This document shows positions 3,300 through 47,996 of a DNA stretch of 64,000 nucleotides, in pieces. The notes under the pieces were generated by a model, which ran no database searches, was not told where the DNA came from, and was given only the letters and a program-made list of their open reading frames with translations. Made by a program: the position numbers and the translations under genes. Source of the stretch: Pocillopora damicornis (taxonomy: Eukaryota); the NCBI RefSeq assembly GCF_003704095.1, contig NW_020844494.1, forward strand, positions 124,001 through 188,000. The letters are read 5' to 3'. How positions within the stretch are numbered: the stretch's first letter is position 1; every line of letters starts with the position of its first letter.

Positions 3300-3787
3300 T
3301 TCGCGCACAACTGTTCACCAGAATCAAAATTTACGGTCGTTTTCCGCGAACACTCTTCAGTAGTAAACGAAACTACAGTCCTCTACCCAACAAACGTGAA
3401 ATTTCCTGTCAGGTTTATCCAGTTCCTTCTTCCATCACGAGCGCTACCGAGAAATATGAAGATGACAGTCTGCCTTCACGATGTTGCAATTGAAACGTTA
3501 TCCACGGCACGTGTGTTGGTTAAAAAAAAATCCTCGCCGTAAATCTACTAAATCGAAGAGGATTCCTTCTCGCAAAATTCCCTACAGAATGACCCAGAAC
3601 TCTTCTAGGCGAAACGAAGAAACGAGTTGAAACAATTGCCATCAAATAAATATGTGACGCGAAATTCGATCACCCCCCGAGCTCTCTAAAGTCTAAATTT
3701 AGGTTCGTTGTGAAATTAACATATCAGTGACCGAGCCGCGCACTAAGGTAATACGTCAAAACAATGAGTGAACTCACACACTTCCTG

Positions 3788-12706: not shown

Positions 12707-13069
12707 TTTACAGAAAATCATAAACAAACTCGTCTTTCCGTTGCATACTCCTCAGACTTGTCAATAGTTCACAGCTAAAGTGAGACATCAATAAAATTTT
12801 CCTTCCTCTCTTCCATCCTCCAAATTATAAATTAAATCATTCATGAGAAATAGGTATTTTCCCAAGGTGATCACCTCCCGAAATGTTGTAAAATACCTCC
12901 TTTCACACCGAATGAGTAGACTTCAAATCCCCGCCATTTTTAAATTTGCAAAGATCTAGTGCCAGCGCTAAAAAATTCCTAGCACAGCGGTCTAGTAAAA
13001 ATAAGGAGCGGCTGCTAAGGTTATAGTTGCGTCGTCAGCAATTTGTAAACAATCTTACCTCAATCGAAC
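12707..13069. promoter_or_regulatory. Bidirectional promoter between TALPID3 (-) and UVSSA (+)
   Basis: The start codons are about 363 bp apart, head-to-head. A YY1-like CCGCCATTTT lies at 12931-12940 and CpGs are locally retained. Confidence 0.65.
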
Positions 13070-15474
13070 ATGGAGGTCACAGCCGAACTTTCTCTTCTAG
13101 AAGAACTGGGCGAAATTATTGGAACTCTTACCACTTCTGGTAGTCCATCGTTGAACAGTGATCTCCTGAAGAAGCTAAAGAACATATGTAAGAAATCTGA
13201 TGTTTACGTCAAACACGCTTACCACTTGATTCTGACACAGCTGAAGAAGAACCACGCAGAAATACGACTTTCATCATTTCAGATCATCAATGAGCTCTTT
13301 TTTCGTTCCCATGCTTTCAGAGAAATGTTGCTGATTGATTTCCAGATCTTCTTGGAACTTACATTAGAAACAGACTACAAGCAACTTTTGCCACCACCTG
13401 CATCTGCCGCAAAAATTTTGAAGGAGAAAGCCTTGGAGGCCATAGATAGCTGGCATCGGAAATTTGGATCTCATTACAAGAAACTAGATTTAGGTTACAG
13501 CTATTTAAAAAGGGTTAAAAACGTTGAGTTAAGTGATCACTTAGCTCGAAGTCAAGCTGAAAGTCGCCAAGTAGAGGATAGGGAAAGACGGAAAAGGAAT
13601 ATCATTAATGGACAGATTATTCGTGTTGAAAATGAGATGTCGGAGATGATCAGCGAAATGGAATTGTGTGCTACTGAAATAGAGAATTGTTTTAAGCTTT
13701 TGTTACCTCACCCAGATGAATATGAGGTTCACTGCACCAGGGAATCTGCCTTATCTGAGCTTGAACAGATTGCTGATACAGATGTTAACAAAAGTCAGGA
13801 TGGTACAGAGGTCACCAAGAATTTAATTGGAAACCAAACACCAGACAGTATGGAAGAAGACAAAATCACTGACAAAAGTCAGGAAAATGATCCTAAAGTG
13901 GATACTGATGAGGAGCTGGTGACTGATCATGGACTGGGAACAAGGTCATATCAGCTGACCATCAGATTAGACAAGACTGGACCAGAAATAAGAGAAACAT
14001 CTGACAACAGCATTGTGTTAAACACAGCTCGGGAGTTTTACAAAGAATTGACTCATAAACACTTACCCATGATCAACAAGTGGATTTCTGTGTTGAACAA
14101 AGGTGAAGGAACACAACAGAAAATTCAAGAACTTATTGATCTTAAGGAGACTTTAGATAATGCAAAAACTAAATTCCTTGAGTTGAAAATAACACCTCTT
14201 CCTGACACCAAAAATAGTCAAAGTGCTTCAACAGAGAGTAGCAGTGATGAAGAAGATGACATTGAAGATTTTGAAGATGTTCCAGAAAGGGAGGACATTG
14301 AATTTCTGGTTTCTCCGGGCCAAACAGCTGGAAAGGGTTCAAAACCACCAACTAGCACTCACAAGACATTCACTGGTAAATAATTGACATTAGATATGTT
14401 TTGTAAAGAAACCAAAAAATTTATTGATTGTGATGATGTCTGTTCTTGTGATAACAATGCCCCAGGATAGCTTTTTTTTCAACAGCTCTGTGGAATTAAA
14501 CCACTGTTCTTTTCTTTAAGGGCTCTACTGGAGGTTTGGCTAAAACACATGGGTTGCTGAGTGTAATTATCTCTTCTTTTTCTACAGAATCAAGTTCCAA
14601 AATATCTCAAAAGAATAAAGCTAGCTTACTGAAGAAGTTTGGTGCTAATCTTCGGGAACTGGGTGATCCCACTTCTCGTGCTACTGCTTTGTTTAAAGTG
14701 AGGGACAAACTATCAAACACTGATTCTTTGTCAGTTCCTGATAAAAGTTCTAAGGAACCAGTAGATGAAAGGAAACAGAGGTTACTTGAAAAAGCACCAG
14801 TTGTGCCATTTGACATGGATCTCTATTTCTGGGAAGACCCAACCGCTGAGTCGCACAAGGTTGTCAAAATGTATCTTGATAACAACTGGGCATCTAAGGA
14901 GCATGAAGGTGAATATCTTGTTGGTGATGAGAAAGAGGCCAGACCAACACGAATGGTCACATTTGCAGGTAGCTTTGAACCTGTCAAGTGGTCTTGCCGT
15001 GCACCTTTACCAAGTGGTAAACTTTGTCCCAGACACGATAGAGTGAAATGTCCTCTTCATGGCAAAATTATACCACGGGATGAAACTGGTAGCCCTGTGA
15101 TTCATGACAACACCACATCTGATGCCGCCTTTGAAACTTCAGAAAGAAAAAGCACCAGTGTTAATGCTGAAGAAGATAAAGGTTCGCCTGCAGTGGACTG
15201 GAAAGAGATTCAACTTGAGGTCGAAGCAGCTACTGGCTTGGACTTGGGAGGCAAAAAGAAACGAAAACGTAAAAGTCACTCGAAAGCAAATGGCAAAAAG
15301 GAGTCTGGTCTGACTGATATTAAAAAGCAAAAGAATACAGTAAGAAATCGTTTAGGAAAGATTGTGTTGAATAAGAAAGCTATGCGACGTGTGGCAGATC
15401 AAATGGATGCTATTGCAACAAAAAGATGTGAGGACAAATTTGCTAATCAATTTAATTATTCCTTGAGAAAGTAG
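13070..15474 (+). CDS. UVSSA: UV-stimulated scaffold protein A, 2 exons
   Basis: Exons 13070-14375 and 14588-15474 are joined by a phase-1 intron (G|AA = Glu). N-terminal VHS-like LTTSGSPSL..LKNICK..HAEIRLSSFQIINELFFRSHAFR, DUF2043 zinc motif CRAPLPSGKLCPRHDRVKCPLHGKIIPRD and C-terminal KFANQFNYSL are present. Confidence 0.95.
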
Positions 15475-30534: not shown

Positions 30535-32217
30535 CTACAATTCAAATTCAAACAGTTCCTTTGTTCCCTTTCCAACTTTTTGAAAGCTCCTCTTTATAGA
30601 AATCAGCTGCTTCTCGTTAAACTTATATTTCTCATTATTGAAGATTTCTTTTTCCAGAGTGTCAAAGATTGCCCTTGTTTCAACATCCACATGAGAGAGA
30701 CACCAAGCAAATTGCTGTATATCTCTTTCATAAAAATCAGACAATTCATTGGCTAAAAGGGAAGAACATAAAAGCCGGTAAAACTTTTTGCTTCCTTTGT
30801 TTGCCTCAACAAATCCTTGAAAGAGCAAAAGTTTTTCCTCCTTAGAAAACACACTTAAGCCGCGTCGAGATACTTCAGCTTCTATTGAGTCAAACAGCTC
30901 ACTATCTGACTTCTCTGTTCTTGCCAGACACCACGCAACCTGACATAAATGAGTACTGGCAATTTGTTTTACACTCCTGACACACAACTCGCCTTCAATT
31001 TCACTGATTAATTTGTCATCATATCTCTGAGCTGAAAAGAATGAAAGCAAGATCAATACAAGTTCATGTGTGTGGAGAGTTTGAACACCTCGGTCAAACA
31101 ACTCTTCCTTCACAACATCAAATATGGCTCCTTCCAAAAAATGTCTTGTACTGAAAGTCCACACAATATCCAAGAGTTCAGCATTGCGTAAACATCCTGC
31201 ACCCTGGGAGACAAGTTTACCATCCAGTGATCGGAAAAATTTCTTGCTTCCTTTCTCAGCTTTCCCAAATGCCCATAGAATTTTAAAAAAATCAATTTTG
31301 TTTAATTCAGTCATGTCTTGGCTTATTATTTCTGCCTCAACTTTGTCAAACAGTTTATCAGCATCCTGTTCCTTCCTTGCAAATGACCAGACAAACTCTG
31401 CTATAGGTTGACTGTTCATTGAATTTATATCTCTTGACAGAAATTCTTCCAAAAAAGCCTCAAATAACTGTACAGAACCATTACTGGTTTCAGCAAATGA
31501 ATATAATATCCCAGATAAATGAGGATTCTCAAGATCACAAATTTTAACATCACCATCTAAAATGGCTTGTTCAAACTTTGGAAATATTGGACTTTTTGTC
31601 ATTTTGAGGTTTGCACATCCATTTAAAATCTGAAAGATGTTTTCATAGGTAAAAACTGACATGCCACAAGCCAGAATCTTTTTCTCACAGAGTTGGAGCA
31701 GCTTTTTATGCTTTTCTCCATTAATTCCCAGACTCCACATCAAAATGGCAAGATTCTGAGGAAGGCATCTGTATAGTTTCTCCAAAATGCTATCCAGTAA
31801 TTCAGTGTATGCATTGCTTTTTTCTTGTTTCAGAACTTTCTTCTGTTCTTCATCTTTTTCTGTGATCTTGGCAATGTTGTAGAGTATAGCAATGCGATTC
31901 ACAATATCAGTCATATATTTAACCTCCATGAAAAAATCAAGTTGCTTGTCAACTGTTTCCAGCGTGTCAATTTTTCTCTCAATTATCATTTTCACTTTGG
32001 TTGGACGGAGGGATTTTAAATCTGTTGAATATTCCATGGATGGACGGAACACTAAAACACTTTTTGTGTTCCCTGTCACTTTCCTAACTCTTCTTGATCC
32101 ACATGAAGCACTGTACATGACACTGGAATCTTGGAATAAATTTGAGGAAAACTTGCGAATCAGAAGTGGAAACACATACATGGGTCGAAAAATTCTAGAG
32201 AAACCCAACATCATCAT
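30535..32217 (-). CDS. Intronless helical-repeat protein with ~11 tandem ~38-aa repeats (OPR/HPR/FASTK-like), probable mitochondrial presequence
   Basis: 560-aa ORF with repeats such as QNLAILMWSLG, QPIAEFVWSFAR, IDFFKILWAFGK, AELLDIVWTFST, THLCQVAWCLAR and RDIQQFAWCLSH in a 38-aa register. The N-terminus is Arg/Ser-rich and acid-poor. No C-terminal RAP domain is evident. Confidence 0.75.
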   Translation of the reverse strand: MMMLGFSRIFRPMYVFPLLIRKFSSNLFQDSSVMYSASCGSRRVRKVTGNTKSVLVFRPSMEYSTDLKSLRPTKVKMIIERKIDTLETVDKQLDFFMEVKYMTDIVNRIAILYNIAKITEKDEEQKKVLKQEKSNAYTELLDSILEKLYRCLPQNLAILMWSLGINGEKHKKLLQLCEKKILACGMSVFTYENIFQILNGCANLKMTKSPIFPKFEQAILDGDVKICDLENPHLSGILYSFAETSNGSVQLFEAFLEEFLSRDINSMNSQPIAEFVWSFARKEQDADKLFDKVEAEIISQDMTELNKIDFFKILWAFGKAEKGSKKFFRSLDGKLVSQGAGCLRNAELLDIVWTFSTRHFLEGAIFDVVKEELFDRGVQTLHTHELVLILLSFFSAQRYDDKLISEIEGELCVRSVKQIASTHLCQVAWCLARTEKSDSELFDSIEAEVSRRGLSVFSKEEKLLLFQGFVEANKGSKKFYRLLCSSLLANELSDFYERDIQQFAWCLSHVDVETRAIFDTLEKEIFNNEKYKFNEKQLISIKRSFQKVGKGTKELFEFEL

Positions 32218-32587
32218 TTTTCTTGCCTCATAAAATCGTCAGCCTCCCTCAATACACTTACTCTAAAAAAAATAAATCACAAATTATCAAACAAATGACT
32301 TAATAACTACGAAGCAATTAATTATGATAAGAAATACACAGCCAGCTTTTCTGAGCTCTGTAAATCAAATGTAGTCAATCGGAGATCATATCAACATGGC
32401 TCGCTCTTGAGGGTTTCGAGATACCTTGCTAGAAGTTTGTTTGTTTATTTTTAATACATGTTTACCTCAAGATGAATCTGATATAATNNNNNNNNNNNNN
32501 NNNNNNNNNNNNNNNNNNNNNNNNNNNNNNNNNNNNNNNNNNNNNNNNNNNNNNNNNNNNNNNNNNNNNNNNNNNNNNNNNNNNNNN

Positions 32588-33219
32588 GGATGTGGCTCGA
32601 GCATTAAACTACCTTCACCTAAAGAAACCATCTCCTATCATTCACCGCGATGTTAGCAGTGCCAATGTGTTGTTATGGCGACAAGGTGATCAATGGCGAG
32701 GCAAAGTGTCAGATTATGGCACAGCTAAATTTATGCAGCAGACCATGACAGTTTGTCCTGGTGCCAGGATATACAGTGCACCCGAGGCATTTACTACAAA
32801 TCAGACTGAGAAGGTATTTCTGATATATATGTTTGTCATTGTCATTTTTCAGGCTTGTATTTGGTTTTTACATTCTCTAATACTCGTGTAAAGATTAGAA
32901 CGATGCCAGTTAGCGGACATGCGATGAATGATAAGACTATCCTGACATGTAACTTCTGTTACCAAAAAAAAAAACTTAGTGAAGTGCTGTATCCTTTATT
33001 CCTCTTTGTGCATTGTTTCTTTTGCAGGTTGATGTGTACAGTTTTGGTGTTCTTCTGTGTGAGATTTGCACCCGGGAACAGCCAGACCCTGAACGGCGTA
33101 AAGAACAAGTTGTTAGGGTTAAAAACCGTGCGACTCGAGCTCTTATTAGAAGATGTTTGCATCAAGATCCTAAAGCGAGACCCAGTATGGAAGACATCAT
33201 TCGTGAACTACAAAAATAG
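32588..33219 (+). CDS. TKL-like Ser/Thr protein kinase, last two exons (5' part in gap 32488-32587)
   Basis: Exons (gap)-32813 and 33028-33219 encode LNYLH..IIHRDVSSANVLL..KVSDYG..YSAPE..K/VDVYSFGVLLCEI..C..DPKARPSM. Confidence 0.9.
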
Positions 33220-36091
33220 TTTGACTTTTCAATCTAACTGCATGAATCCTCAACGTTGTTTAATTTTGACATTTTTGAAGGTAGCAGCATCATTGTACAA
33301 ACATCTATTAAGTTATGAAAATTTTTAAAGCTAAAAAAACCGCCTTTTTTAGCAATGAATTGCTCCCACGAAAACACTTAAAATACATCAAAATGTAAAC
33401 TTTGAAGAAAGAATGGAATACCTTGCCTTTCTACACGAGCTTCAAAACAGTTAAGGTTTTAAGATCTTGTAATCTGCCAAAGTTCATCATCCTCAAAATC
33501 ATCACTTTTAGTTCATCTCTATCGTTTATACCGATATGATAACTTACCGTAGAGGAAAAAATCACTTTGACAAAAGAGACTGAACTTTGACAAGACACCA
33601 TCGTGAAACGGTTTTAAACTTGTTTCGTTTGGTTCAGTACATCGGTCTAAATTTTTTTCGTGTAATCATGTTTTGATCTTGAGTGAGTGTTTAAACATTA
33701 AAGAAAATACCATTAGAAAAATCTTAGATTTCTTTGTTTGGAGAAGAACTCTGTCTTTTTCAGTCAATTGAAAAAATAGCTGATGCAAAAAGTAAAGTGA
33801 TCAATATCATTCTGAGATTCTGTAAATTGATAGTTTTTTTGGATTCTTAAATATATTCTTTAATAAATTCATATTTCGTTGATTTTAAGCAGTTGTTCAG
33901 TCGTTTCAATTTGATTTAAGACTGAAGCTGTAATTTAACCAAAATATCTCATCCCATTTAGTTTTTCTCCAAGTTGTCAGCTGGCGCTCCACTTTAGAAT
34001 TTGGGGTTAAAACGCTCAAAGCTCTAATGCCTTTGATTATTCCTTTGTCACCACGTACTCCATAAGAAAAAAAGGCTATCTTGAAATGAAATTTGGCTCT
34101 TAAATACGCGACCATGACAACAACTCGTTCAAACAAGGAATTTCTTTGTTTTTATTTGCAGACGTCTCCGTCATGGACCATGTCCCAACGAATTCCTTAC
34201 TCCCCCCCCTCCCCCTACCTCCGAGATAAAAAAAAAAAAAACTACATCGATCCGGTTTACGGAAAGAATACGGCGTAAGAAGAAAATTTATTGAATTTGA
34301 AATTTTGAAATTGAATTTAGCTTTATCATTTTGCAACTGCGCATAAGACTGATAATTTTGATTCAATCGTAAATTCTCCCCACTGACCCTTAGTGATGTA
34401 TCAAGTAAAAATTAGTTTCGATAAACAATAATTAGCGAGGTTATAAAAATAAACGCACTGGGAGATTTGTGTTCATCGGTTATTGGTGCTAACATGTTCA
34501 CCAGGTAACATTAAAATGTATTTTGCAATTGAACTCTTTCTTCCGAGCAATTTATTGCCGTATTGCGGAATCAAAGTTGAAACCAAAGGTACGTTTACAA
34601 GGTATTCTTAAAAGTTCATCGTCAATCATATTGAACAGGATTTTACTTTTGTAACTTCTAGAATTTGAGCTAGTAAATTCAATATTTAACACCATCGAAT
34701 CATCTTCAAAATTGGTGATGACTGTCTTGCTGTGTATGAGAGGAAATTCGTGATACGAACCCGCTAGCTTATTCTTCCAGTGTCAGGTCCGTTGCAATAC
34801 TTAACTATAGTTTACATTCATCCTATAAAAGAGCAGGTGATGCGCTTTTCGAAAAAAATGGTTTAAGGCGTTTCGTTCGAAGTACAATCTTTTGAAAATC
34901 GGGATCCGGAGGGGTGAGGTATGTTGACTTGAATGGGGCACAGAGAACTTACCCCCCAACTCCCTCCTCTGGTCCGCCTGCTTCTCTGGGCTTGCAATTT
35001 GAGCATCTTCCTTGCACTCTTTCCACTTTTCCTCTCTCGACTCAATATAAAGCGGACGAACAAAGCAACGGGTTTTTTGTGAGAGAACAATTTCAACTTT
35101 TTGGCGTTACGCAGTCAAAGAGAAAAATGATCGTGATTGTTATCTTTGGAGCACGAGCAGGGATAAAGGTTGATATCATTAAAAGATCATCTCTGAAAAA
35201 TTATTCGAGGGCTCGAAGTCCCTGAAATTAACGCACGACTCTTTGGTAGCTGTCGGTCAAACATTTTCCCAGACTTAACATGCTCATGATGCTACTCGTT
35301 CTAAACCTCTGACTATAATCTTGACAAAATGCTTTTAGGAAGGAAATGCCTTATTTCAAAGTGTAACCCACATTGATGAGTCCTTGTCAGTATTCATGAT
35401 TATTTTGGAGGCCGCTGTATTTGGGAGAATCAGCGGGCAAAAGTTGCCTTTCATTATTAGGGAATAATCGGTTCTACCAGAAGAGTTTACTTATAACAGG
35501 AACGGTGCACGATTTTCAGGAATTATTAAGAAACGAGAATAAAAATACATTTGTAATCATTTTGTTATTGCTTCCAGTCCATGGTAGGAAAAGGGTTATT
35601 TTGTTTAATTAAAATTTTGCCGCATGTGATTGTTTAATTTCATGCAATACACTTCGTTGCTTTTCCGAAGTGTCTTTATTAGATACATTTAAAGGTCCAT
35701 TTTTATTATTCCTCCCCTATACAAACAAAAAGAAACACAAACAGGTGGCCACTTGTTAAATATTCATAGTTGCCCTCAAAGAAACAAGTAGCGATCAGTT
35801 TGTTATGAAAACATTGATCTTTCTCTTGTCTCAGTGAGGTAACAGTCATCAATTAAAAAGAGCGAGCGAGCCAGGAAAGGAATAAGAATCTCCACCTTAA
35901 AAGTGGTAAACACCTGTGAATTGTTACACCTCCACACTTACACCGGCGTCACTAACTTTCATGTATGTGCTGTAACGCAAAAGCAAAGCTAAGAATTTAA
36001 TAAATTGTAACCAAATTTTGAATATCAACATAACAATTTGATTGTATTTCTAAATTTATTTTCTAATTACTCTTCATTCCACAGAATAAGG

Positions 36092-39000
36092 ATGTTGTCA
36101 GCTGCTGTACTGTTGGCACTGGTGACTGTATCTGTGGCTTCTGAAGGTAAAATGACTTGTTTTCTGAAGAAACGTGTTATCTCTTGCTAAAGTTTAAGAG
36201 TCTACTTGAGGGGACCATTTTTGAAAGACTTGAAAATTTATTTCTTGTTTATTTTAATGTAATTGATCATTGAAAGTCGCCACCCTTTAAAAACACTCTT
36301 GGAAACAATGGGGGAAAATACCCCTCGTAGAAGCAAGATGAGAAAAGGCACGAATAGGTCACTGATTGATCCCTTTAGCTGTCTTTGAAACTAGAAAATA
36401 CTTGTTCTCGTTTTTTTTCAATTTTCATTTCATCAAATGAGATGTGTTCATCCAGTTGTATGACTTTGGTGTGAGTGAAAGTGCATCCTGACAATGACTG
36501 CTGTGAACAGCAACACCGTTGCCTGGATACATTTCAACGATACTTGCAATGTTTGATGCTCACTTGAAGTGTCATCTCTTTTTTCTAATTTATCTCGCGA
36601 TACTCGTAAAATTTAAAGCCTTTCTTTCATCCAGACGTCGAACAAGAAACTGGTACCAGCAATTTTGAAAGGCAACCCCATCAAAACGATCAAGGCAACC
36701 TGTAATGGCATGGCACTCTGTTCAAGGGGGGTCAAAACTTTTCACCCTGAGGAAAGCCACAATCAAGAAACCCACCAACTTGTTCCTCGAATGAATGTTG
36801 AGAAGAGGGTAAAGCTGGAGTTTCTGATCTAAAAGTCTCCAATCATCATAAGACCTTCTCTAGCTGGGGAAAACTTAAGAAATTCTCGTTTTAAACCCTT
36901 TGAATCCAGCTTGATCTTAATTAGCTTAAAAAGAAGCGACTTTCTGCGGCGTGATTGTATCTGATGACATATGTTTCATTCCTTCTTCATCTCAACAGGA
37001 GCAAAGTGGAAGTACGGGGAAACAGACCGTCACGGTACAGACAACAGAGTCTTGAAGTATAGATTAACAATTCATTTGCTGTATGCTGGTTTATTCCAGA
37101 TATTCAAGATTTTTCGCATGCTTTAAAACTATTGTAAATAAATCTCGTACCCAGATTCTACCGAGTAATTAACTGAAATGTATCCGCTCGGCCGTGGAAT
37201 GTCTGGGTACGAGACTATAATACTACTCATACAAACAAATGAAAACATAGTATTTACTTTGTGCTCAAAAATCTATTTAATATAATCCCTTATTTTCCTA
37301 TTAACGCTGATATTCCTAACAGGTTATGGTCCACCTGACTGGGGTAAAGTTTCAAAATACTGCGATTACACCGCCCAGTCCCCCATAAATATCGAGACTC
37401 CGGTTAAGAAAGATGCAAGTCTCAAGGGACTCAGAATTACAACCAAGAATAGAAATGGAAGGGTCAGCGGAGACATAAAAAACAATGGTCATGCGCCTAC
37501 CCTAACTATTGACAAAGGCAAGGCTAGACTCACCGGGGGTCCCCTTGGAGATAGCGTGTATATGCTCCAGCAGTTCCACTTTCATTTCGGTTGTGATTAC
37601 GACGAAGGATCAGAACACCTCGTGAACGGAAAGGCATATCCTGGAGAGGTACGCAATGGTAGCTCTTGTTTTCCATACGTAATCACGGCGGGAGGCGTCA
37701 GCACTACGACCACTAACTGAAAGCACCCGTGACAAATTGTTCCTCTGCTACAGGTGCATAAGGACTAGTCATCATTGATCACCTCACCTGGGGAGAGAGT
37801 GACGGTTTTTATTGTTGGAGGATGGATTACATGGTTTTCAGGGGTAACGGAGGGGGAATTAGTCGTCGTTAAAAAATCGACCGCCATTAACCGCCAATGA
37901 GGGGGAAATATAGACATATTCACAGAGCCTTCGGAGGGGTCGACAAATTTAATTATGACCCAATCAAAATCCTCCAGCTCCCATCCCCCCTCAACTCCAT
38001 ACCATCCCCCCTCCACCCCCTCCCATCCCCCCTCAGGCGATAACGACCGGTCTCTTAAGTCGTTCCGTCAGTCTCTAATTTTGAGATTGGATTTCTTACT
38101 GCAATTTAATTAAGTCAAGTCAGTCAAAGCAAGATGACATTTACTAATCACAATCGAGGAAAATATCTAATCTCGTGTCCAGGTTCTACCGTTAAGTGCT
38201 TGTCCGTGGAAGGTCTGGGTACAAGACCTGAAAATGTCACTGGCTATGAAGCAAACTGTGTGAAGCGTGGAATACGCGAGTGGCTATTAATCTTGTATGG
38301 CTCTAGTTTGGCATCTGGTCGGCAGATCAGCGAGGAACTATTTACAATATTGTACTTCATGTATAATTTTAATTTATCGTCTTGTAGCTCCATTTGGTGA
38401 CTTATAACACAAAGTACGCTGATTTTGATACCGCTGCGTCCCAATCCGATGGACTGGCTGTGATTGGCGTTTTCTTTGAGGTATGTCTGGAAATATCATA
38501 CATGTTGCTATATTAACTTTACCAGGTATTTTGTTAGTGATGAATTTGGAAAAAAAGAAAATTTTTCCTGGAATAGCAACTGTTCCTAAAATGAAAGGAA
38601 TCAGCCGCATGGTGGAATCGGTAAGGGTTGGGGAAGACTGGGGTAGAGAGGTAAAGTTGAAGTTGAAGTCATCGCAATTGAGGAAATTGAAAATTGGATT
38701 GATTGAAGAAAAATGTACATCAACAGCTTTTCTTTAGTGAGATCATTTGCATACCTGTAAAAAATACCTCGTACAGTTGCAAGGGATTTATTTCTGCTCC
38801 ACGACAAACATTAGAGTTGGCAACGCTCGACATTAGTGCACTAGTATACTTCATACAGCACATTGTACAAAAGGCAGCAACAAGGGTCAGATTTCAATGG
38901 TTAGGGAACTAACGCTAAGTATTGGCTTGGGAGATGGAGTGAATCATTCTAAGAGGAACATCTTTCAGTTAAAAACTTCTAAGACGATGATATCTTTAAT

Positions 39001-40162
39001 GTGAAAACATGCTTCCTGTTTCAGGAAACGAAGAAAAGAGAAAAAGGGAAAGGAAAAAAGCACTATACCATCCGCAAACTTTACTCAGCTCTGAAAAAAA
39101 TAAAGGACGTTGGTGAGGCTTTAGCAACTTACATCATCTTATATATCCACTTATAAATCCGTTTGTCTCGCGCCGTAGAGCCTGTTAATTCAAGAGTAAA
39201 GCTATCAATCAGAGATAAAGATGTTTCCACTGCTCTACTTTCTTTTCTCCCAAGACCATCCATAGATTTTCAAGCAGAAGTTTCATGAAGTAACACAACA
39301 TCAACGGAAGGGTATTTTTTTATTTGAAACTAGATTTTCAGAACCAAAATTAAACGAAATGTATGGCAGACAGTGTCGAGAATTTATACATAGATATTGG
39401 AAGCAAAAAGGTTAAACATTTATAACATCAGGGCAGCTAATACAATCACTTTCTCTCCCAGGTGCCGAAGCTTCAGTCAAAAACATAGCGCTGCTCGACT
39501 TGGTTCCAGAACTGAAAGATCTCTCATCGTTCTACTCCTACAAGGGTTCCCTTACCACCCCTCCCTGTTATCAATCAGTTAACTGGATTGTACTGAAAGA
39601 ACCCATCAAACTCCGTAGTTTTGTGGTAAGAACATTTTTATGCTATTTTTCTGCTTGTTAACATTTAAACACTATTTAAGTGCCTGAAAAATTAGCACTT
39701 ACGCGTTTCACATATCGCCTACTAAAGCATTCAAACGCACTAGAGTCCAATTTTAGACACTAGTGTCTGAATTAAGAAACTTGTGTCCGATTTTAGATTT
39801 TAGACACAAGTGTCCGTTATTAGATTCTAGTGTCCCATTTTAGATATTAGTGTCTGGTTTTTCAGATTTTATACACTAATGTCCGATTTTAGGACGATAA
39901 GCAGCACCTGACGTGTCTAAATTGGACCCTTTTTTCTTTCGTGATGCTACTGACACTTGTGTTTAAAGTTATCTATACCCAAAAAGTCCCCAGCCTTCTA
40001 TAACTTTTGTTTTTTCCGATCTTCTATCCACAGTTAATGTGATTTTTTTTTCAGTTCGGCGCCATGAGGAGACTGAAAAACGGAGAGGGAGGCCTTATGT
40101 GTGGAAACTTCAGACCACCTCAGAAACTCAACGGACGTGTTGTTTCTGAACTCGACGGATGA
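36092..40162 (+). CDS. Secreted alpha-carbonic anhydrase, paralog A (complete)
   Basis: Exons 36092-36146 (signal peptide [18 protein letters not shown]), possible 36635-36652, 36999-37034, 37323-37648, 38388-38480, 39025-39112, 39462-39625 and 40055-40162. Motifs [51 protein letters not shown] and [11 protein letters not shown] are present, with all three Zn-ligand His intact. Confidence 0.93.
39750..39895. repeat. Degenerate ~20-bp tandem repeat (ttttagacactagtgtccga) in CA intron; counterpart at 46380-46540
   Basis: Repeated self-complementary core gacac(t/a)agtgtc. Confidence 0.7.
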
Positions 40163-41916
40163 GCCCAAGAATCAACTTGCAACTACTTAACACTATAGTA
40201 GCTAATTTACATCCTGCAAGAGAATATAAACTCTTATAATCGCCTAGATACTCTTAGCTAGATTGTGACGTATTCTGGGGGTTTCTTTCTTAAGCAAGGA
40301 TTGTTAGCGACATCCAAATAAATTGCATTTATCGGATTTGTTTGACTATTACTGTTTATTCAAAAGAAAATTATTTAAATCGCCAAGAAAATTATGATGG
40401 TAGACTTAATGACTCTTTAAAAGAAAGGAACATTTATCACAAATCTCTACCGAATGGGGATCAGTTCCTTAGAGCAAGATACCGTATCCCAAAGACATTT
40501 CAGTCATAATGATAATAAACGTTGTGAATAATTTATTATTATTGTTCATATGGTTCCATTTCTTAAAAAAAAAAACGAACAAAACAAGATATTCTTAGTC
40601 CAGGAAGAAATTATTATGAAACCCGATGAAATGGCAAAGAGATATTTTGCGTTTATCGTGATTTGGAAGTAAAAACCTTCTTCCTTCTGAAGAAAGAATG
40701 GAATGCTTGCCTTTCTACACGAGCTTCAAAACAGTTAAGGTTTTAAGGATCTGGATCTGGAAAAGTTCATCATCCTTAAAATCATAACTCTTTAGTGTCA
40801 CCTCTTTCGTCTATACTTATATGCTAACTTACCGTAGAGAAAAAAATTACTTTGACACAAGAGTGAACTTTGACAAGATACCTTCGTGAAACGGTTTTAG
40901 ACTTGCTTCGTTTGGTTCAGTTTCATCGGTCTAAAAATTGTTTGTTTGACCATGATTTTATCTTGAGTGAGTGTTTAAAAATTAAAGAAAATACCATTAG
41001 ACAAATCTTAGATTTCTTTGTTTGGAGAAGAACTCTGTCTTTTTTAGTCAATCGAAAACAGCTGATGCAAAAAAGGAAAGTGATCTATGTCATTCTGAGA
41101 TTCTGAAAAAAAACAAGCAGCAAATTGATAGTTACTTTGTAAAAATTAGATTATTATTCTTTGATTAATTCACAATTCGTTTCGGCAATTTTGTAGTTTA
41201 CTTACTTGATAAAGTTTCTTATCAGCCTTGATTAAGCGGTTGTTCAGTCGTTTCAGATTGATTTAAGACTATAGCTGTAATTTAACCAATATATCGAAAA
41301 AATCATGCCTCACTGTAAAAACACAAAACCTCTGATTTGACAATTTTTTAGCATCCTGGCTCTCATCCCATTTATTTCTTCTCCAAGTTGAAAGCTGGCG
41401 CTCGATTTTAGAGTTTAGATTTAAAACTCTCAAAGCTCTAGTCCCTTTGATTATTCCTTTGTCACCACCTACTCTGTAAGAAGAAAAATTTGATCTTGAA
41501 ATGAAATTTGGCTATAAAATACGCGACTATGACAAAAATTCGTTCAAACAAGAAATTTATTTGATCGTGATTGTTATCTGTGAAGCACAAGTAGGGATAA
41601 AGTTTGATATCATTAAAAGATCCTCTCTGCAAAATTATTCGACGGCTTAAAGTCCCTGAAATTAACGCACGACTCCTTAGTAGCTGTCGGTCAAATATTT
41701 TCCCAGGCTGAACATGCTCATGATGCTACTTGTTCCAAACCTCTGACTATAATCTTGACAAAATGCTTTCAGGAAGCAAATGCCTTATTTCAAGCTGTAA
41801 CCCACATTGATGAGTCNNNNNNNNNNNNNNNNNNNNNNNNNNNNNNNNNNNNNNNNNNNNNNNNNNNNNNNNNNNNNNNNNNNNNNNNNNNNNNNNNNNN
41901 NNNNNNNNNNNNNNNN

Positions 41917-43552
41917 ATGCTGGCTGGCTGCACTGTTCTGGCTTTGCTGTCTGCACAGGGTGTTCTTGCTTGTCCGATTCCTCCATTTCAATGGTTACGA
42001 GCTCAACAAATTTCTTCATGTGAGCTACATTACGCATTTCGTTGTTGCCATTGGCGTCTCGTACGAGAACAGCATTTCCATCCTTGTGAGTGACAACAGA
42101 CGGATCTAGCTCGTAATTAGGCGGGAGCTTGTCGTCTAGCGTCTGCTTCAATAACACTTTGTCTTCTGCTTTAATGTCACTGTATTTAGCTGCTCGTGTC
42201 TTGTCCGCATATTCTTTTTGTCGAAGTTTCGCACGTGCATCTCTTTCTCTTAGCTGCTGCTGCTAATATGGCTCTGTTGCTCGCTCTTTGTAGAATTCAA
42301 CTTGAGGAAGTTTGTCTCGCAGTTTCCTCCCCATAAGCAGTTCTGCAGGGGACATTCCAGTAACAGTGTATGGAGTAACTCTGTACTGAAACGGAAAGTC
42401 CTGAAGGGCCTTCCGCCAGTCTCTCGCTTCAAGTCGGGAAATCCGCACAATTTTCAAAAGGGTCTCATTGCAACGTTCCACTTCTCCATTGCTTTGCGGC
42501 CAGTACGGTACACCCTTCTTGTGTTCAATCCCCAGATATTCCAAGAAGGCTTCAAACTCTTTCACTCCGAATGGGGGTCCATTATCGCTACGGACGGTTC
42601 CTGGTAATCCATGTGTTCTGAAGATAGCTTCCATAGACTTAATCACGTGTTGAGCATCTGTTTTCTTCAGAAGGATAGCTTCCATCCAACGGGAACGGTA
42701 ATCCACCACTACCAGGAGGTGCTCGCCATCTGATATGTCAAGGAGATCGATTGAAATATCTTGCCACGGTCCCTCAGGCAGTTTTATCGATCTCACAGGT
42801 TCTGGTTTGGCTCTTGGTCCTACAAGCTGGCTGGGATAACAAGCTAGTATCAACTCTTCCACCTGCTTATAAATCCATTTGAGGCCATCACACTTTCTCT
42901 CGCAATCTGGCCTTGGTTCTGACCATTCCCTGGTGACCTTCATGAGCCAGCACAATGATTTGCTTCCAAAGGTTCTCAGGCATCTTAATACGATTTCTCC
43001 TCATCACAGTTTGTCCTATCAGCCACAGCTCATCTTGTACTGCTTTGTAAATGGTTCCTGACAATCGGTTCCAGTCACCGGTGATAATGGCCTGGCGCAC
43101 TAGCTGCAAGGTTGGGTCATTTTCTAAGGCAATCACTACTTGCTTTGGTACTAATGCAGCCGGCACAGCTTCTCTTGCAACGCTGTGTGCAAATCTTTCG
43201 TGCTTTCATCTTGGGTCTGGCCAACAGAGAGACAGCTGAGAACATCTGCTGCATTATCTTTTCCCCTAATGTGAGTCAACTCGTACTGGTACTGCTGCAA
43301 ATAAAGGAGCCACCTCTGTGTTCGGGCTGATGGAGGTTTGGACTTTGGGCTGAGGACTATCACTAAGGGTTTGTGATCTGTACAGATCTCGAACTTAATC
43401 CCATATGGGTACAGGTGGAACTTCTCGCAAGCCCAACTGACGGCTAAGGCTTCTCTTTCAAACTGTGAGTATCGTTTTTCAACCTTACTGAGTTTGCGAC
43501 TGGCGTAATAGATAGGCCTGTAACTCCCATCCTCTTGCTCTTGTTCAAGTAT
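41917..43552 (-). mobile_element. Degenerate Ty3/Gypsy LTR-retrotransposon pol fragment (RNase H - integrase)
   Basis: RNase H YASRKLSKVEKRYSQFEREALA..TDHKPL, integrase zinc finger AHEGHQGMVRTKARLR and core IDLL..VVDYRSRW..SDNGPPF..PQSNGEVER. It is broken by frameshifts and stops and flanked by gaps, so LTRs are not visible. Confidence 0.92.
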
Positions 43553-43652
43553 NNNNNNNNNNNNNNNNNNNNNNNNNNNNNNNNNNNNNNNNNNNNNNNN
43601 NNNNNNNNNNNNNNNNNNNNNNNNNNNNNNNNNNNNNNNNNNNNNNNNNNNN

Positions 43653-46600
43653 CACCGGGGGTCCCCTTGGATATAGCGTGTTTATGCTCCAGCAGTTCCA
43701 CTTTCATTTCGGTTGTGATTACGACGCGGGATCAGAACACCTTGTGAACGGAAAGCCATATCCTGGAGAGGTGCGCAATAGTAGCTCTCGAAACTTTTTG
43801 TTTTCCATACGTTAGCATTACGACCACTAACTGAAAACATTCGTGACAAATTGTTCCTCTCTCTCACAGGTGCTTAGGGACTAGTCATTATATATTGATC
43901 ACCTCACCTAGGGAAGGAGTGAAGGTTTTTTTGTTGGAGGATGGATTACATGGTTTTCAGGGGAAACGGAGGGGGGAATTAGGNNNNNNNNNNNNNNNNN
44001 NNNNNNNNNNNNNNNNNNNNNNNNNNNNNNNNNNNNNNNNNNNNNNNNNNNNNNNNNNNNNNNNNNNNNNNNNNNNNNNNNNNNNNNNNNNNNNNNNNNN
44101 NNNNNNNNNNNNNNNNNNNNNNNNNNNNNNNNNNNNNNNNNNNNNNNNNNNNNNNNNNNNNNNNNNNNNNNNNNNNNNNNNNNNNNNNNNNNNNNNNNNN
44201 NNNNNNNNNNNNNNNNNNNNNNNNNNNNNNNNNNNNNNNNNNNNNNNNNNNNNNNNNNNNNNNNNNNNNNNNNNNNNNNNNNNNNNNNNNNNNNNNNNNN
44301 NNNNNNNNNNNNNNNNNNNNNNNNNNNNNNNNNNNNNNNNNNNNNNNNNNNNNNNNNNNNNNNNNTCAATTTGATTGAGTACCGTCAGTCAAAGCAAGAT
44401 GACATTTACCAATCACAACAGAGGAAAATATCTAATATCGTGCCCGAGTCTATCACCGTTTAGTGCTTATCCGTGGAAGGTCTGGGTACAACACTTGAAA
44501 ATATGACTGGCTATGAAGCAAACTGTGTGAAGCGTGGAAAACGCGAGTGGCTATTAATCGTGTATGGCTCTAGTCTGGTATCTGGTCGGCAGATCAGAGA
44601 GGAACTATTTACAATATTGTACTTCATGTATAATTTCAATTTATCGTCTTTTAGCTCCATTTGGTGACTTATAACACAAAGTACGCTGATTTTGATACCG
44701 CTGCGTCCCAATCCGATGGACTGGCTGTGATTGGCGTTTTCTTTGAGGTATGTATGGAAATATCATATATGTTGCTATATTAACTTTACCAGGTATTTTG
44801 TTAGTGATGAATTTGGAAAAATAAAAAATTTTTCCTGGAATAGCATCTGTTCCTAAAATGAAAGGAATCAGCCGCATGGTGGAATAGGTAAGGGTTGGGG
44901 AAGACTGGGGTAGAGAGGTAAAGTTGAAGTTGAAGTCATCGCAATTGAGGAAATTGAAAATTGGATTGATTGAAGAAAAATGTACAGCAACAGCTTTTCT
45001 TCAGTGAGATCATTTGCATACCTATAAAAAATACCCCGTACAGTTGCAAGGGATTCATTCCCGCTCCACAACAAACATTATAGTTGGTAACGCTTGACGT
45101 TGGCGCGCAAGTAAGACTTCATACTGCATATTGTACAAAAGGCAGCAACAAGGGTCAGATTTCAATAGTTAGGGGACTAACGCTAAATATTTGCTTGGGA
45201 GATGAAGTTCATCACTCCAAGAGGAACATCTTTCAGTTAAAAACTTCTAAGACGATGAGATCTTTAATGTGAAAACATGCTACCTATTTCAGGAAAAGAA
45301 GAAAGGAGAAAAAGGGAAAGGAAAAAAGCACTATTATGCCCTCCTCAAACTTTACTATGCTCTGAGAAGAATAAGGGATTTTGGTAAGGCCTTAGCAGCT
45401 TGTATCATTTTATATATCCGCTTACATATTCGTTTGTGTCACGCCAAAGAGTCTCTATAAATTCAATGGTCAAGGTATCAATTAGAGATAACGAAGTTTC
45501 CACTGTTCTACTGTTAGTCTTCGTCACGTGATGAGGTTCAATGATTGCGCGTCGCTATAAAGGGATAGTTAGCTGCTATTGGTGCGTTTTGGCGATATCT
45601 TATTAGGGCATTTTGATCCTCGTTGCATTTCGACAAGTAGATGTTGGTTCCTCGCAGGAGTTCTAATGTTGTCATTTCATTGCCCACTGTGCGGGTATCG
45701 TGCAAGGAATAAAAACAAAAAAGTTTTAAATAACAATACCCTATACGAAACATAACTTAAATACGAAGATCGTTAACACGACGATATCTTGAGAATATCC
45801 TTCTCCCATCACGGATCCAGAGTGTCCACACTACTCAGCCAAACTCATTACTCCTAATAGTGACCAAAAGAGAATTTCTCCCTAGAACATCCATAGATTT
45901 TCAAGCAGAAGTTTCATGAGAAGTAACACAACATCAACGGAAGGGTATTTTTTGATTTGAAAGTAAATTTTCAGAACCAAAACTAAACGAAATGTATGGC
46001 AGACAGTGTCGAGTATTTATACCTAGATATTGGAAGCGAAAAGGTTAACCATTTATAACATTAGGGCAGCTAATACAACCACTTTCTCTCTCAGGTGCCG
46101 AAGCTTCAGTCAGATACATAGCACTGCTCGACTTGGTTCCTGAACTGAAAGACCTCTCATCGTTCTACTCCTACAAGGGTTCCCTTACCACCCCTCCCTG
46201 TTATCAATCAGTTCGCTGGATTGTACTGAAAGAACCCATTAAATTCCCTGGTCCTTTGGTAAGAATATTTTTATGCTATTTTTCTGCTTTTTAACATTTA
46301 AACACTATTTAAGATCCTGAAAAATTAGTGCTTGCGCGTTTCACATATCCTACTAAAGCATTCAAACGCACTAAAGTCCAATTTAAGACAAGAGTGTCCG
46401 AAATCGGAAATTTGCGTTCGATTTTAGATTTTAGACACAAGTGTCCGATTTAAGACACAAGTGTCCGTTACTAGACACTAGTGTTCTATTTTAGATACCA
46501 GTGTCTGATTTTATATTTTAGACATAAGTGTTCGATTTTAGGACGATAAGCAGTACCTGACGTGTCTAAATTGGACCCTTTTTCCTTTGTGAAAGTTATG

Positions 46601-46833
46601 CTATTAACAGTTCACAGAGCACAAACGTTTGCGTTTAAAGTTATCTATACCTAAACAGTCCCCAACCCTCTGTAACTGTAGTTTTTTCCGATCTTCTATT
46701 CACAATTAATGTGATTTTTTTCCAGTTCGGCGCCATGAGGAGATTGAAAAACGGAGAGGGAGGCCCCATGTGTGGGAACTTCAGACCACCTCAGAAACTC
46801 AACGGACGTGTGGTTTCTGAATTCGACGGATGA
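43653..46833 (+). CDS. Alpha-carbonic anhydrase, paralog B (5' exons missing in gaps)
   Basis: Exons (gap)-43770, 44655-44747, 45293-45383, 46095-46258 and 46726-46833 form an open frame with intact [18 protein letters not shown]; close copy of paralog A. Confidence 0.9.
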
Positions 46834-47996
46834 GCTCAAGAATCAACTCGCAATAGCTTAACACTACAGTAGTTGATTTAGATTCTCCAAGAGAATATAA
46901 ACAGTTTATAATCTCCTAGATACTCTTAGCTAGATTGAGTGACGTATTTTGGAGGTTTCTTTCTTAAGCGAGGATTGTTTGTAACAACGAAATAAACTGC
47001 ATTTATCGGATATGTTTGACTATTACTGTTTATTCAAAAGGAAATGAGTCAAATCCCCGCGAAAATTATGATAGTAGACTTAATTATTCTTGAAAAGAAA
47101 GAAATATTTGTCATGAATCTCCATCGAATGGGGATTCCCCACAGTAAGGCACCGTATCCCAAAGACATCTCAGTGGTAATGACGACGGATAGAAACGAGC
47201 GAAGCGTTTTGCTTTAAACTTGATCACCTTTCCTTGTTCCTCTGTTAAGAAATTGACAAACCATACCCTTTTGTTCACACCAGTGGCAACTTTCTTACCT
47301 TCCTTTGCAACTCAGCTCTTTTTATTCTCACCGCTGAGTTCACATATACCTCTTTCGTGAAATAAGTATTCTTTAGGGACAACCCTGAAAACCCTTTTAC
47401 GGTGTGCGAAACCTCACGAACGAAATGCTGAGCGGGGGGGACAAAACTCACAGACACTTTTGGTGGAGAGAGTTTGGATAAGCTTTAGCACCGCTGGCTA
47501 TAACTGCTAACTTTTCCCTTTTTAACCCTCTTCCTCGAGAGTCAGNNNNNNNNNNNNNNNNNNNNNNNNNNNNNNNNNNNNNNNNNNNNNNNNNNNNNNN
47601 NNNNNNNNNNNNNNNNNNNNNNNNNNNNNNNNNNNNNNNNNNNNNACAGAAACAATATAATCTCATTCCCTGTATACAAGACAGTAACATTTGGTATTCA
47701 TACAAACCCTAGTACGGAAATATCTTCTTCTGTTTGACTTCGAGAACATAGGAAATCGTGAATGATACATCGGTGAAATACGTTATCATCTGTTCATCAT
47801 TTTATGTCTAACACAGTAATTATCAGATTATGGTAAAATGTTGAATAAAGGAAATGTTCGCTTATGATTATTAAACAAATTCTCCCTGTCATTAACATAT
47901 GAAATGTGTTGAGTTGAGTATGGAGAATATGCATACTGATGTTAGAGTGTAAAGGATTCTAGTTCTTCATGGGAAGTTACTTTATCCGTGTCTTAC

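What the first reader, a model, noticed from the sequence alone, without database searches (positions are those of the whole stretch)
39025..45383. Near-exclusively non-synonymous divergence in one exon between the recent CA duplicates
Codon-by-codon comparison of 39025-39112 with 45293-45383 gives 10 amino-acid-changing codons, 1 synonymous change and 1 extra codon ([15 protein letters not shown] vs [16 protein letters not shown]). The preceding exon (38388-38480 vs 44655-44747) appears nucleotide-identical. A second hotspot is KLRSFV vs KFPGPL at the end of the next exon. This suggests localised positive selection on a surface patch, and/or gene conversion homogenising the catalytic exon.
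Basis: partly seen in the sequence, partly recalled or inferred. Interest (0 to 1): 0.7.

Follow-up and report, generated by a model that had tools for sequence, protein, structure and literature searches.

The report
Coral carbonic anhydrase twins, patchily homogenised
Two neighbouring, expressed copies of a coral carbonic anhydrase gene are almost identical in one stretch and very different in the next, likely because DNA was copied between them in patches, while the amino-acid changes fall in a predicted surface helix that usually varies in this family, so positive selection is not shown.

Summary
The counts are right: coding exon 5 of copies A and B differs at 10 amino-acid codons, 1 synonymous codon and 1 extra codon, and exon 4 is identical. 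The genes are tandem copies of a secreted alpha-carbonic anhydrase (SpiCA8 ortholog) in a Pocillopora coral. B is spliced in 3 of 4 RNA runs, so it is not a silent pseudogene.

Gene conversion is well supported. The near-identical tract extends far into intron 4 (14 of 400 non-coding columns differ, against 12% elsewhere), including a 100-nt identical intron run.

Positive selection is not shown. Exon-5 omega is 2.0 against all introns (one-sided p about 0.03, best of five exons) but 0.9-1.4 against its own flanks, because the intron just after it is 20% diverged. A site-mixture test is negative (p about 0.7). Three of the 10 changes and the indel vary between alleles. This exon is typically about 3 times more variable in other coral CA pairs too.

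Verdict: an ordinary tandem duplicate with a conversion mosaic. A selection-maintained divergence island remains possible (about 25%).

The parts
36092..40162 (+). Copy A: secreted alpha-carbonic anhydrase, 289 aa, 7 coding exons (36092-36146, 36999-37034, 37323-37648, 38388-38480, 39025-39112, 39462-39625, 40055-40162)
   Evidence: Open frame with GT-AG junctions; identical to P0034; PF00194 E=2.8e-72; 83% to Stylophora alpha-CA 8
43653..46833 (+). Copy B, 3' two thirds (43653-43770 partial exon 3, 44655-44747, 45293-45383, 46095-46258, 46726-46833); 5' exons not present in the window, likely in an assembly gap
   Evidence: Open frame; spliced 957-nt RNA contig with B-diagnostic exon-3 bases and 0 differences on B exons 6-7
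39025..39112 (+). A exon 5: Lys-rich loop (pLDDT 69 for residues 171-180) plus predicted helix 181-195
45293..45383 (+). B exon 5; seven changes at codons 186-199, where A's residue is uniform in all 13 A-type sequences examined
38239..38731 (.). Low-divergence tract in A (end of intron 3, exon 4, first half of intron 4); inferred gene-conversion tract; identical runs 38385-38486 and 38620-38719
   Evidence: 14 of 400 non-coding columns differ; none of 4000 permutations reached this; longest-run p=0.0036
44506..44998 (.). Matching low-divergence tract in B (approximate ends); identical runs 44652-44753 and 44887-44986
   Evidence: an independent contig matches B 44723-44988 with 0 differences
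39113..39239 (.). Divergence peak at the start of intron 5 (B 45384-45512): 25 of 127 columns differ
   Evidence: as a genome-scan maximum it is only borderline (p about 0.05)
45513..45874 (.). About 360-nt insertion found only in B intron 5, at the right edge of the divergence peak
   Evidence: only weak partial matches elsewhere in the genome; covered in 4 of 4 DNA runs
39607..39625 (+). Second hotspot, end of A exon 6 (LRSFV, residues 250-254; B reads FPGPL at about 46240-46258)
   Evidence: strand-to-helix junction in the model
40688..41816 (.). Duplicated upstream region of B (matches 33403-35382 upstream of A, 86-92%), joined without a gap to A's 3' flank

Best explanation
A and B are tandem copies of a secreted carbonic anhydrase gene, both spliced in RNA data, that likely exchanged DNA by gene conversion in patches, so exon 4 and its introns are nearly identical while exon 5 sits in a likely unconverted, older-looking patch. 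Exon 5 encodes a flexible loop and a predicted surface helix that tolerate change across coral CAs, so amino-acid differences likely built up there at about the neutral rate (omega near 1). The catalytic core stayed under purifying selection in both copies. Shown: sequence counts, the divergence mosaic, splicing of B, family-wide variability of the exon. Inferred: conversion as the cause of the low tract, and relaxed constraint as the cause of the exon-5 excess.
For: Non-coding divergence runs from 3% (8 of 260, first half of intron 4) to 20% (25 of 127, start of intron 5). The low tract differs from the rest at p=5e-8 (window chosen post hoc; permutation-corrected 0 of 4000). It is unique to A and B in the genome search (2 matches). 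An independent contig carries B bases at the 7 diagnostic sites it spans (one 2 nt from its end) and the identical run. A named P. verrucosa model (P0027) joins B-type exon-3 residues (A125, P135) to A-type exons 5-7, and P0036 has P135 alone. Exon-5 omega drops to 1.4 (CI 0.75-2.6) against both flanks and 0.9 (0.5-1.8) against the 3' flank. M1a vs M2a p=0.66-0.72. Exon 5 is the least conserved of the five exons scored among 30 CAs (0.41 vs 0.61-0.74). Its enrichment in A-B (4.6x) lies inside the range of 13 other pairs (0.9-7.5x, median 3.1). 23 of 24 amino-acid differences avoid conserved columns.
Against: Against all introns pooled, exon-5 omega is 2.0-2.5 with nominal one-sided p=0.026-0.037. 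Five consecutive changed codons at 250-254 have scan P=0.01-0.03 even if all sites are neutral, under uniform divergence. Both hotspots border high-divergence intron stretches, which is also the signature of selection resisting conversion. Codons 186-199 are invariant at the seven sites in 13 of 13 A-type sequences, and the B-type contigs that cover them in X2 and X11 show no listed amino-acid change there (11 rows hidden). Changes are skewed to B (11 B-derived, 6 A-derived, 7 ambiguous; 11 vs 3 fixed, p=0.057). A low-divergence intron could also be a conserved regulatory element.
Confidence: 0.6

Rival explanations
1. Selection keeps exon 5 and residues 250-254 different while conversion homogenises the rest (opsin-like divergence island). 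B would have gained a new hydrophobic surface (L187, Y191, with Y184/Y190) for a different partner, matrix or oligomer state.
For: The divergence peak is centred on the 3' half of exon 5 and the adjoining intron (17-24 differences per 100 columns), between low tracts. R187L, S191Y, K194R and K195R lie 120-160 degrees from the hydrophobic moment. B-derived changes often add aromatic residues (D107Y, S191Y, N207Y, V199F). Nominal omega 2.0. The pattern is the one described for red/green opsins (PMC3924837, passages).
Against: No test survives correction or local calibration. The peak abuts a 360-nt insertion, and large indels alone block conversion (PMC3924837, passages). The peak is borderline in a scan (p about 0.05), and the 3' flank is nearly as diverged (15%). 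Three of the seven changes are Lys/Arg swaps and one is Ile/Leu. B's branch (0.12) is no longer than the Stylophora ortholog's (0.14), so A may be slow rather than B fast.
Confidence: 0.27
2. There was no conversion: the copies are uniformly about 9-10% diverged, intron 4 holds a conserved regulatory element, exon 4 is simply constrained, and exon 5 is relaxed or mildly selected.
For: Exon 4 is the most conserved exon in the family (0.74), and zero synonymous changes there has P=0.11. PMC10236652 (passages) states that conversion is very rare in coral tandem arrays.
Against: A 100-nt identical run and about 400 nt at 3.5% in non-coding DNA. The stretch is not detectably shared with the neighbouring CA genes. 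Mosaic proteins exist (P0027, P0036), although gene-model or assembly chimeras could explain them.
Confidence: 0.1
3. B is an allele assembled twice, an assembly chimera or a silent pseudogene.
For: B is flanked by N gaps, lacks its 5' exons in the window and lies beside a retroelement fragment. No stand-alone B-type protein was found.
Against: B's duplicated upstream region follows A without a gap. A-type and B-type sequence co-occur in 4 of 4 DNA runs, and X1 and X11 hold two alleles inside the B-only insertion (X11: 13.1 + 10.4, equal to the B depth of about 23). B junctions are spliced in 3 of 4 RNA runs from 2 studies. There are no stops or frameshifts.
Confidence: 0.03

Closest known systems
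Stylophora pistillata alpha carbonic anhydrase 8 (SpiCA8, ANJ59768.1; P0039) in the SpiCA8/9/12 cluster
   Same: 83% identical to A; same Lys-rich loop and the same four cysteines; clustered with CA12 (PMC4981384 section 21).
   Different: Here it is present as two copies. Only one SpiCA8-type cluster was seen for Stylophora. The A+B node is weakly supported (87/41), so the date of the duplication relative to the genus split is open.
Human carbonic anhydrase II fold (PF00194)
   Same: Model matches at E about 1e-29, TM-score 0.78-0.89; catalytic motifs align.
   Different: Signal-peptide-like N-terminus, extra cysteines and an 8-residue basic insertion before the exon-5 helix.
Duplicates under gene conversion with a peak of divergence (human red/green opsins; Teshima-Innan model as reviewed in PMC3924837)
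   Same: Tandem copies with homogenised introns next to a divergent exon.
   Different: Background divergence here is high (about 12%), the peak is borderline and abuts an insertion, and no functional difference is known.

Membership tests
alpha-carbonic anhydrase (catalytic type) | PF00194 domain and CA fold | tested here: met
   (fold modelled for A only)
alpha-carbonic anhydrase (catalytic type) | Three Zn-binding His plus Glu/Thr gatekeepers (H116, H118, H141, E128, T231; roles recalled from human CA II) | tested here: met
   Motifs present in A and B; alignment to CA II
alpha-carbonic anhydrase (catalytic type) | Proton-shuttle His (H87; role recalled) | tested here: inconclusive
   Present in A. 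B's codon is not in the window; no change is listed in the B RNA contig, but only 16 of its 18 exon-3 differences were shown
alpha-carbonic anhydrase (catalytic type) | CO2 hydration activity | not testable with these tools
   needs an assay
Cnidarian secreted alpha-CA cluster with two disulfides (PMC4981384) | Signal peptide and two cysteine pairs | tested here: met
   A has a hydrophobic N-terminus (read by eye, no predictor run) and C44, C121, C235, C270; B shows C121, C235, C270. Bond formation itself was not tested
Positively selected paralog region | dN/dS significantly above 1 against a local neutral yardstick | tested here: not met
   omega 0.9-1.6, p 0.09-0.40 for four of five calibrations; 2.0, p=0.036 uncorrected for the fifth; M1a/M2a p about 0.7; two sequences only, low power
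Interlocus gene conversion tract | Run of near-identity in neutral sites beyond chance | tested here: met
Interlocus gene conversion tract | Paralogs group by species within the tract | not testable with these tools
   no phased A and B intron sequences from other species could be fetched (one search found none)
Pseudogene | Stops, frameshifts or no transcript | tested here: not met

The most novel reading that the evidence does not exclude
Copy B is a neofunctionalised, Pocillopora-specific secreted carbonic anhydrase: selection holds a new hydrophobic, aromatic surface (helix 181-195 plus residues 250-254, and an extra Cys43 seen in one RNA contig) apart from copy A against ongoing gene conversion, an opsin-like divergence island in a coral carbon-handling enzyme that public gene models hide by fusing the two genes.
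Probability: 0.25. Interest if true: 0.55.

Novelty: new member of a known kind. Interest (0 to 1): 0.3.

Why it matters
Coral CAs feed inorganic carbon to calcification and symbiosis, and lineage-specific CA duplications are common (PMC8382919, passages). A documented conversion tract is a modest counter-example to the statement that conversion is very rare in coral tandem arrays (PMC10236652, passages). It is also a clear caution: conversion lowers the apparent neutral divergence and inflates dN/dS in unconverted exons. In practice, the named gene models P0026 and P0028 fuse A and B into one two-domain protein, so expression studies that use them cannot tell the copies apart. If selection does hold exon 5 apart, the pair would give a small, testable set of residues for how a secreted CA changes partner or location.

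Tried and rejected
Searching for B-type proteins found no separate cluster at 263-839 aa (best hit 86%) and none shorter at E<=1e-30; 6 of the 21 members of the A cluster were never listed. The metagenome scan gave 2 distant loci and no usable coral coding DNA, so multi-species codon models could not be run. Spatial closeness of the two hotspots could not be measured, because no model coordinates were returned; that the equivalent CA II helices pack together is recalled only. RNA depths were not used to rank A and B (contigs only). X18 showed no spliced joint, which is no evidence of absence. No complex prediction was sent: no full-length B sequence was available. The net-charge line was misaligned and is ignored. 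Exon 4's identity alone was rejected as evidence of conversion (P=0.11). Literature: searches found no paper on selection or conversion in this pair in the held library (joined the accession terms, which may miss some spellings); supplements of PMC10236652 and PMC4981384 were not opened and may list the copies. Earlier scan notes: none.
Full report
WHAT IS THERE. The window holds four alpha-carbonic anhydrase (CA) genes. Copy A (36092-40162, +) has 7 coding exons and encodes 289 aa with a hydrophobic N-terminus. It is identical to P0034, 83% identical to Stylophora alpha-CA 8, and folds as a CA (pLDDT 91.7; TM 0.78-0.89 to human CA II). Named Pocillopora damicornis gene models P0026 and P0028 contain A followed by B, by inspection, so the organism is a Pocillopora coral. 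Copy B (43653-46833) starts at an N gap within exon 3. Its upstream region (40688-41816) matches A's upstream region and follows A without a gap.

OBSERVATION. Confirmed as counted: 10 amino-acid codons, 1 synonymous codon and 1 extra codon in exon 5; exon 4 identical; five consecutive changed codons at 250-254. Over the 189 shared codons pN=0.060 and pS=0.088; in exon 5 pN=0.148 and pS=0.103. Amino-acid divergence is uneven among exons (p=0.003). The N:S ratio inside exon 5 is what neutrality predicts (P=0.48).

B IS A REAL, EXPRESSED PARALOG. I laid 4 of the 6 RNA runs listed. Spliced B junctions appear in 3 of 4 (X15, X16, X17; two studies), and an A junction in X16. One 957-nt contig runs from exon 2 to B's 3' end, carries B-diagnostic exon-3 bases and has 0 differences on exons 6-7. 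It also shows B's missing part of exon 3, with six further amino-acid changes among the 16 of 18 differences listed, including Y43C. I laid 4 of the 14 DNA-type or unlabelled holders with a share of at least 0.5. All 4 hold B's intron insertion and A-type sequence, and X1 and X11 hold two alleles within the B-only insertion.

SOME DIFFERENCES ARE ALLELIC. Among the 13 stand-alone A-type proteins listed (of 21 cluster members; the two fused models left out), K172 occurs in 11 and A185 in 10, as in B, and most have the extra codon. B-like contigs in X2, X7 and X11 read R175, as in A; X1's B contig was not shown there. X2's B contig also has A's synonymous base at D198. Seven changes at 186-199 remain.

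SELECTION TESTS. A pairwise codon model gave exon omegas of 0.5, 0, 2.0, 1.0 and 0.3 for exons 3 (part) to 7 with introns as the neutral rate, and 0.7-0.8 for the gene. Exon 5 above 1 has one-sided p=0.026-0.037, which is about 0.13-0.19 after allowing for five exons (my Bonferroni arithmetic). The M1a vs M2a mixture test is negative, p=0.66-0.72. Simulations at uniform divergence with all sites neutral gave P=0.11-0.27 for 7 changes in 14 codons, 0.17-0.41 for 10 in 29, and 0.01-0.03 for five in a row; these fall to 0.02-0.09 and 0.002-0.009 if only the 116 variable codons may change, a null under which the whole gene shows 23 changes against 18-22 expected. So the signal is borderline before local calibration.

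THE NEUTRAL YARDSTICK IS NOT UNIFORM. Non-coding divergence is 12.5%, 5.7%, 3.1%, 10.2%, 19.7%, 5.9%, 11.8% and 14.7% in successive segments. The tract A 38239-38731 has 14 differences in 400 non-coding columns (0 of 4000 permutations), with a 100-nt identical run inside intron 4 (p=0.0036). Protein constraint cannot explain that. The stretch matched only A and B in the genome. An independent contig matches B 44723-44988 with no difference across 7 diagnostic sites, which argues against an assembly collapse. Mosaic proteins P0027 and P0036 point the same way, though they could be chimeric models. The intron right after exon 5 is the most diverged segment. Against local yardsticks, exon-5 omega is 1.6 (low tract excluded, p=0.09), 1.4 (both flanks, p=0.21; intron 6, p=0.16) and 0.9 (3' flank, p=0.40).

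THE REGION IS VARIABLE IN THE FAMILY. Mean column conservation among 30 CAs is 0.41 for exon 5, 0.74 for exon 4 and 0.61-0.65 for exons 3, 6 and 7. In 13 other pairs (not fully independent), exon 5 diverges 0.9-7.5 times faster than the rest (median 3.1); A-B is 4.6. Stylophora differs from A at all five residues 250-254 and from B at four. In the model, exon 5 is a low-confidence basic loop plus helix 181-195. On a sequence-based wheel, 187, 191, 194 and 195 face away from the hydrophobic side, 185 and 186 face it, and 197 is intermediate. With SpiCA8 as outgroup, 11 changes are B-derived, 6 A-derived and 7 ambiguous (p=0.33; 11 vs 3 fixed, p=0.057). In the tree B's branch is 0.12 against about 0.04 for A, but SpiCA8's is 0.14 and the A+B node is weak (87/41). 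The duplication may therefore be older than 9% divergence suggests.

HOW IT MOST LIKELY WORKS. Tandem duplication (shown), patchy conversion (inferred from the mosaic), purifying selection on the core of both copies (shown by 23 of 24 changes avoiding conserved columns and an intact frame), and near-neutral drift of a tolerant surface in an unconverted patch, perhaps shielded by B's 360-nt insertion (inferred). I give this 0.6. The rival, that selection keeps these residues out of conversion, predicts much the same picture (PMC3924837, passages on peaks of divergence and on indels blocking conversion) and gets 0.27. It has in its favour the five-codon run, the one-face hydrophobic changes and the uniformity of the seven sites among A-type sequences. 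Two sequences cannot separate the two readings.

COMPARISON WITH WHAT IS KNOWN. PMC4981384 (passages and section 21) places SpiCA8, 9 and 12 on one contig and defines a secreted cnidarian CA group with two disulfides; A has both cysteine pairs. PMC8382919 (passages) reports frequent lineage-specific CA duplications. PMC10236652 (passages) reports pervasive tandem duplication, more CAs in Pocillopora than in Porites, and calls conversion very rare. Other papers were seen only as search listings. Searches found nothing on selection or conversion in this pair; supplements were not opened. Human CA II residue roles are recalled.

VERDICT. Observation confirmed, interpretation partly supported. New member of a known kind; interest 0.3.

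Noticed in passing
36092-46833: Named gene models P0026 (459 aa) and P0028 (479 aa) fuse A and B into one two-domain CA; A has its own stop and B its own spliced transcript, so the fusion is likely an annotation artefact.
   Followed up: yes
50202-47953 (-): SpiCA12-like CA (about 80% in matched exons) with an acidic stretch where A and B have a Lys-rich loop; its last two exons were not found in the window and may lie in the gap at 47546-47645.
   Followed up: partly
about 55325-52630 (-): Fourth CA gene whose first zinc-binding His is replaced by Tyr (QFYFH), so likely a catalytically inactive CA-related protein; possibly the SpiCA9 counterpart, not tested.
   Followed up: partly
41917-43552 (-): Retroelement fragment (RT RNase H and integrase domains) between two N gaps upstream of B's exon 3; contigs from 3 RNA runs cover it and continue past both ends.
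   Followed up: partly
B exon 3 (not in the window; laid on 37322-37646): The B RNA contig has Y43C next to the conserved C44, giving an extra cysteine, and the 6-nt insertion that most A-type sequences also have. Seen in one run only.
   Followed up: partly
45230-45330, run X11: Summed depth is about three times the B-only depth, a weak hint of a third, A-like or mosaic copy in that sample; P. verrucosa also has more than one A-type model.
   Followed up: no
1488-3314 (-); 13049-15474 (+): IRF2BP-like gene and UVSSA-like gene.
   Followed up: no
30535-32238 (-): 567-aa open frame with no Pfam match.
   Followed up: no
32588-33220 (+): Exons that look by eye like the C-terminal part of a protein kinase; the last exon alone gave no Pfam hit.
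   Followed up: no
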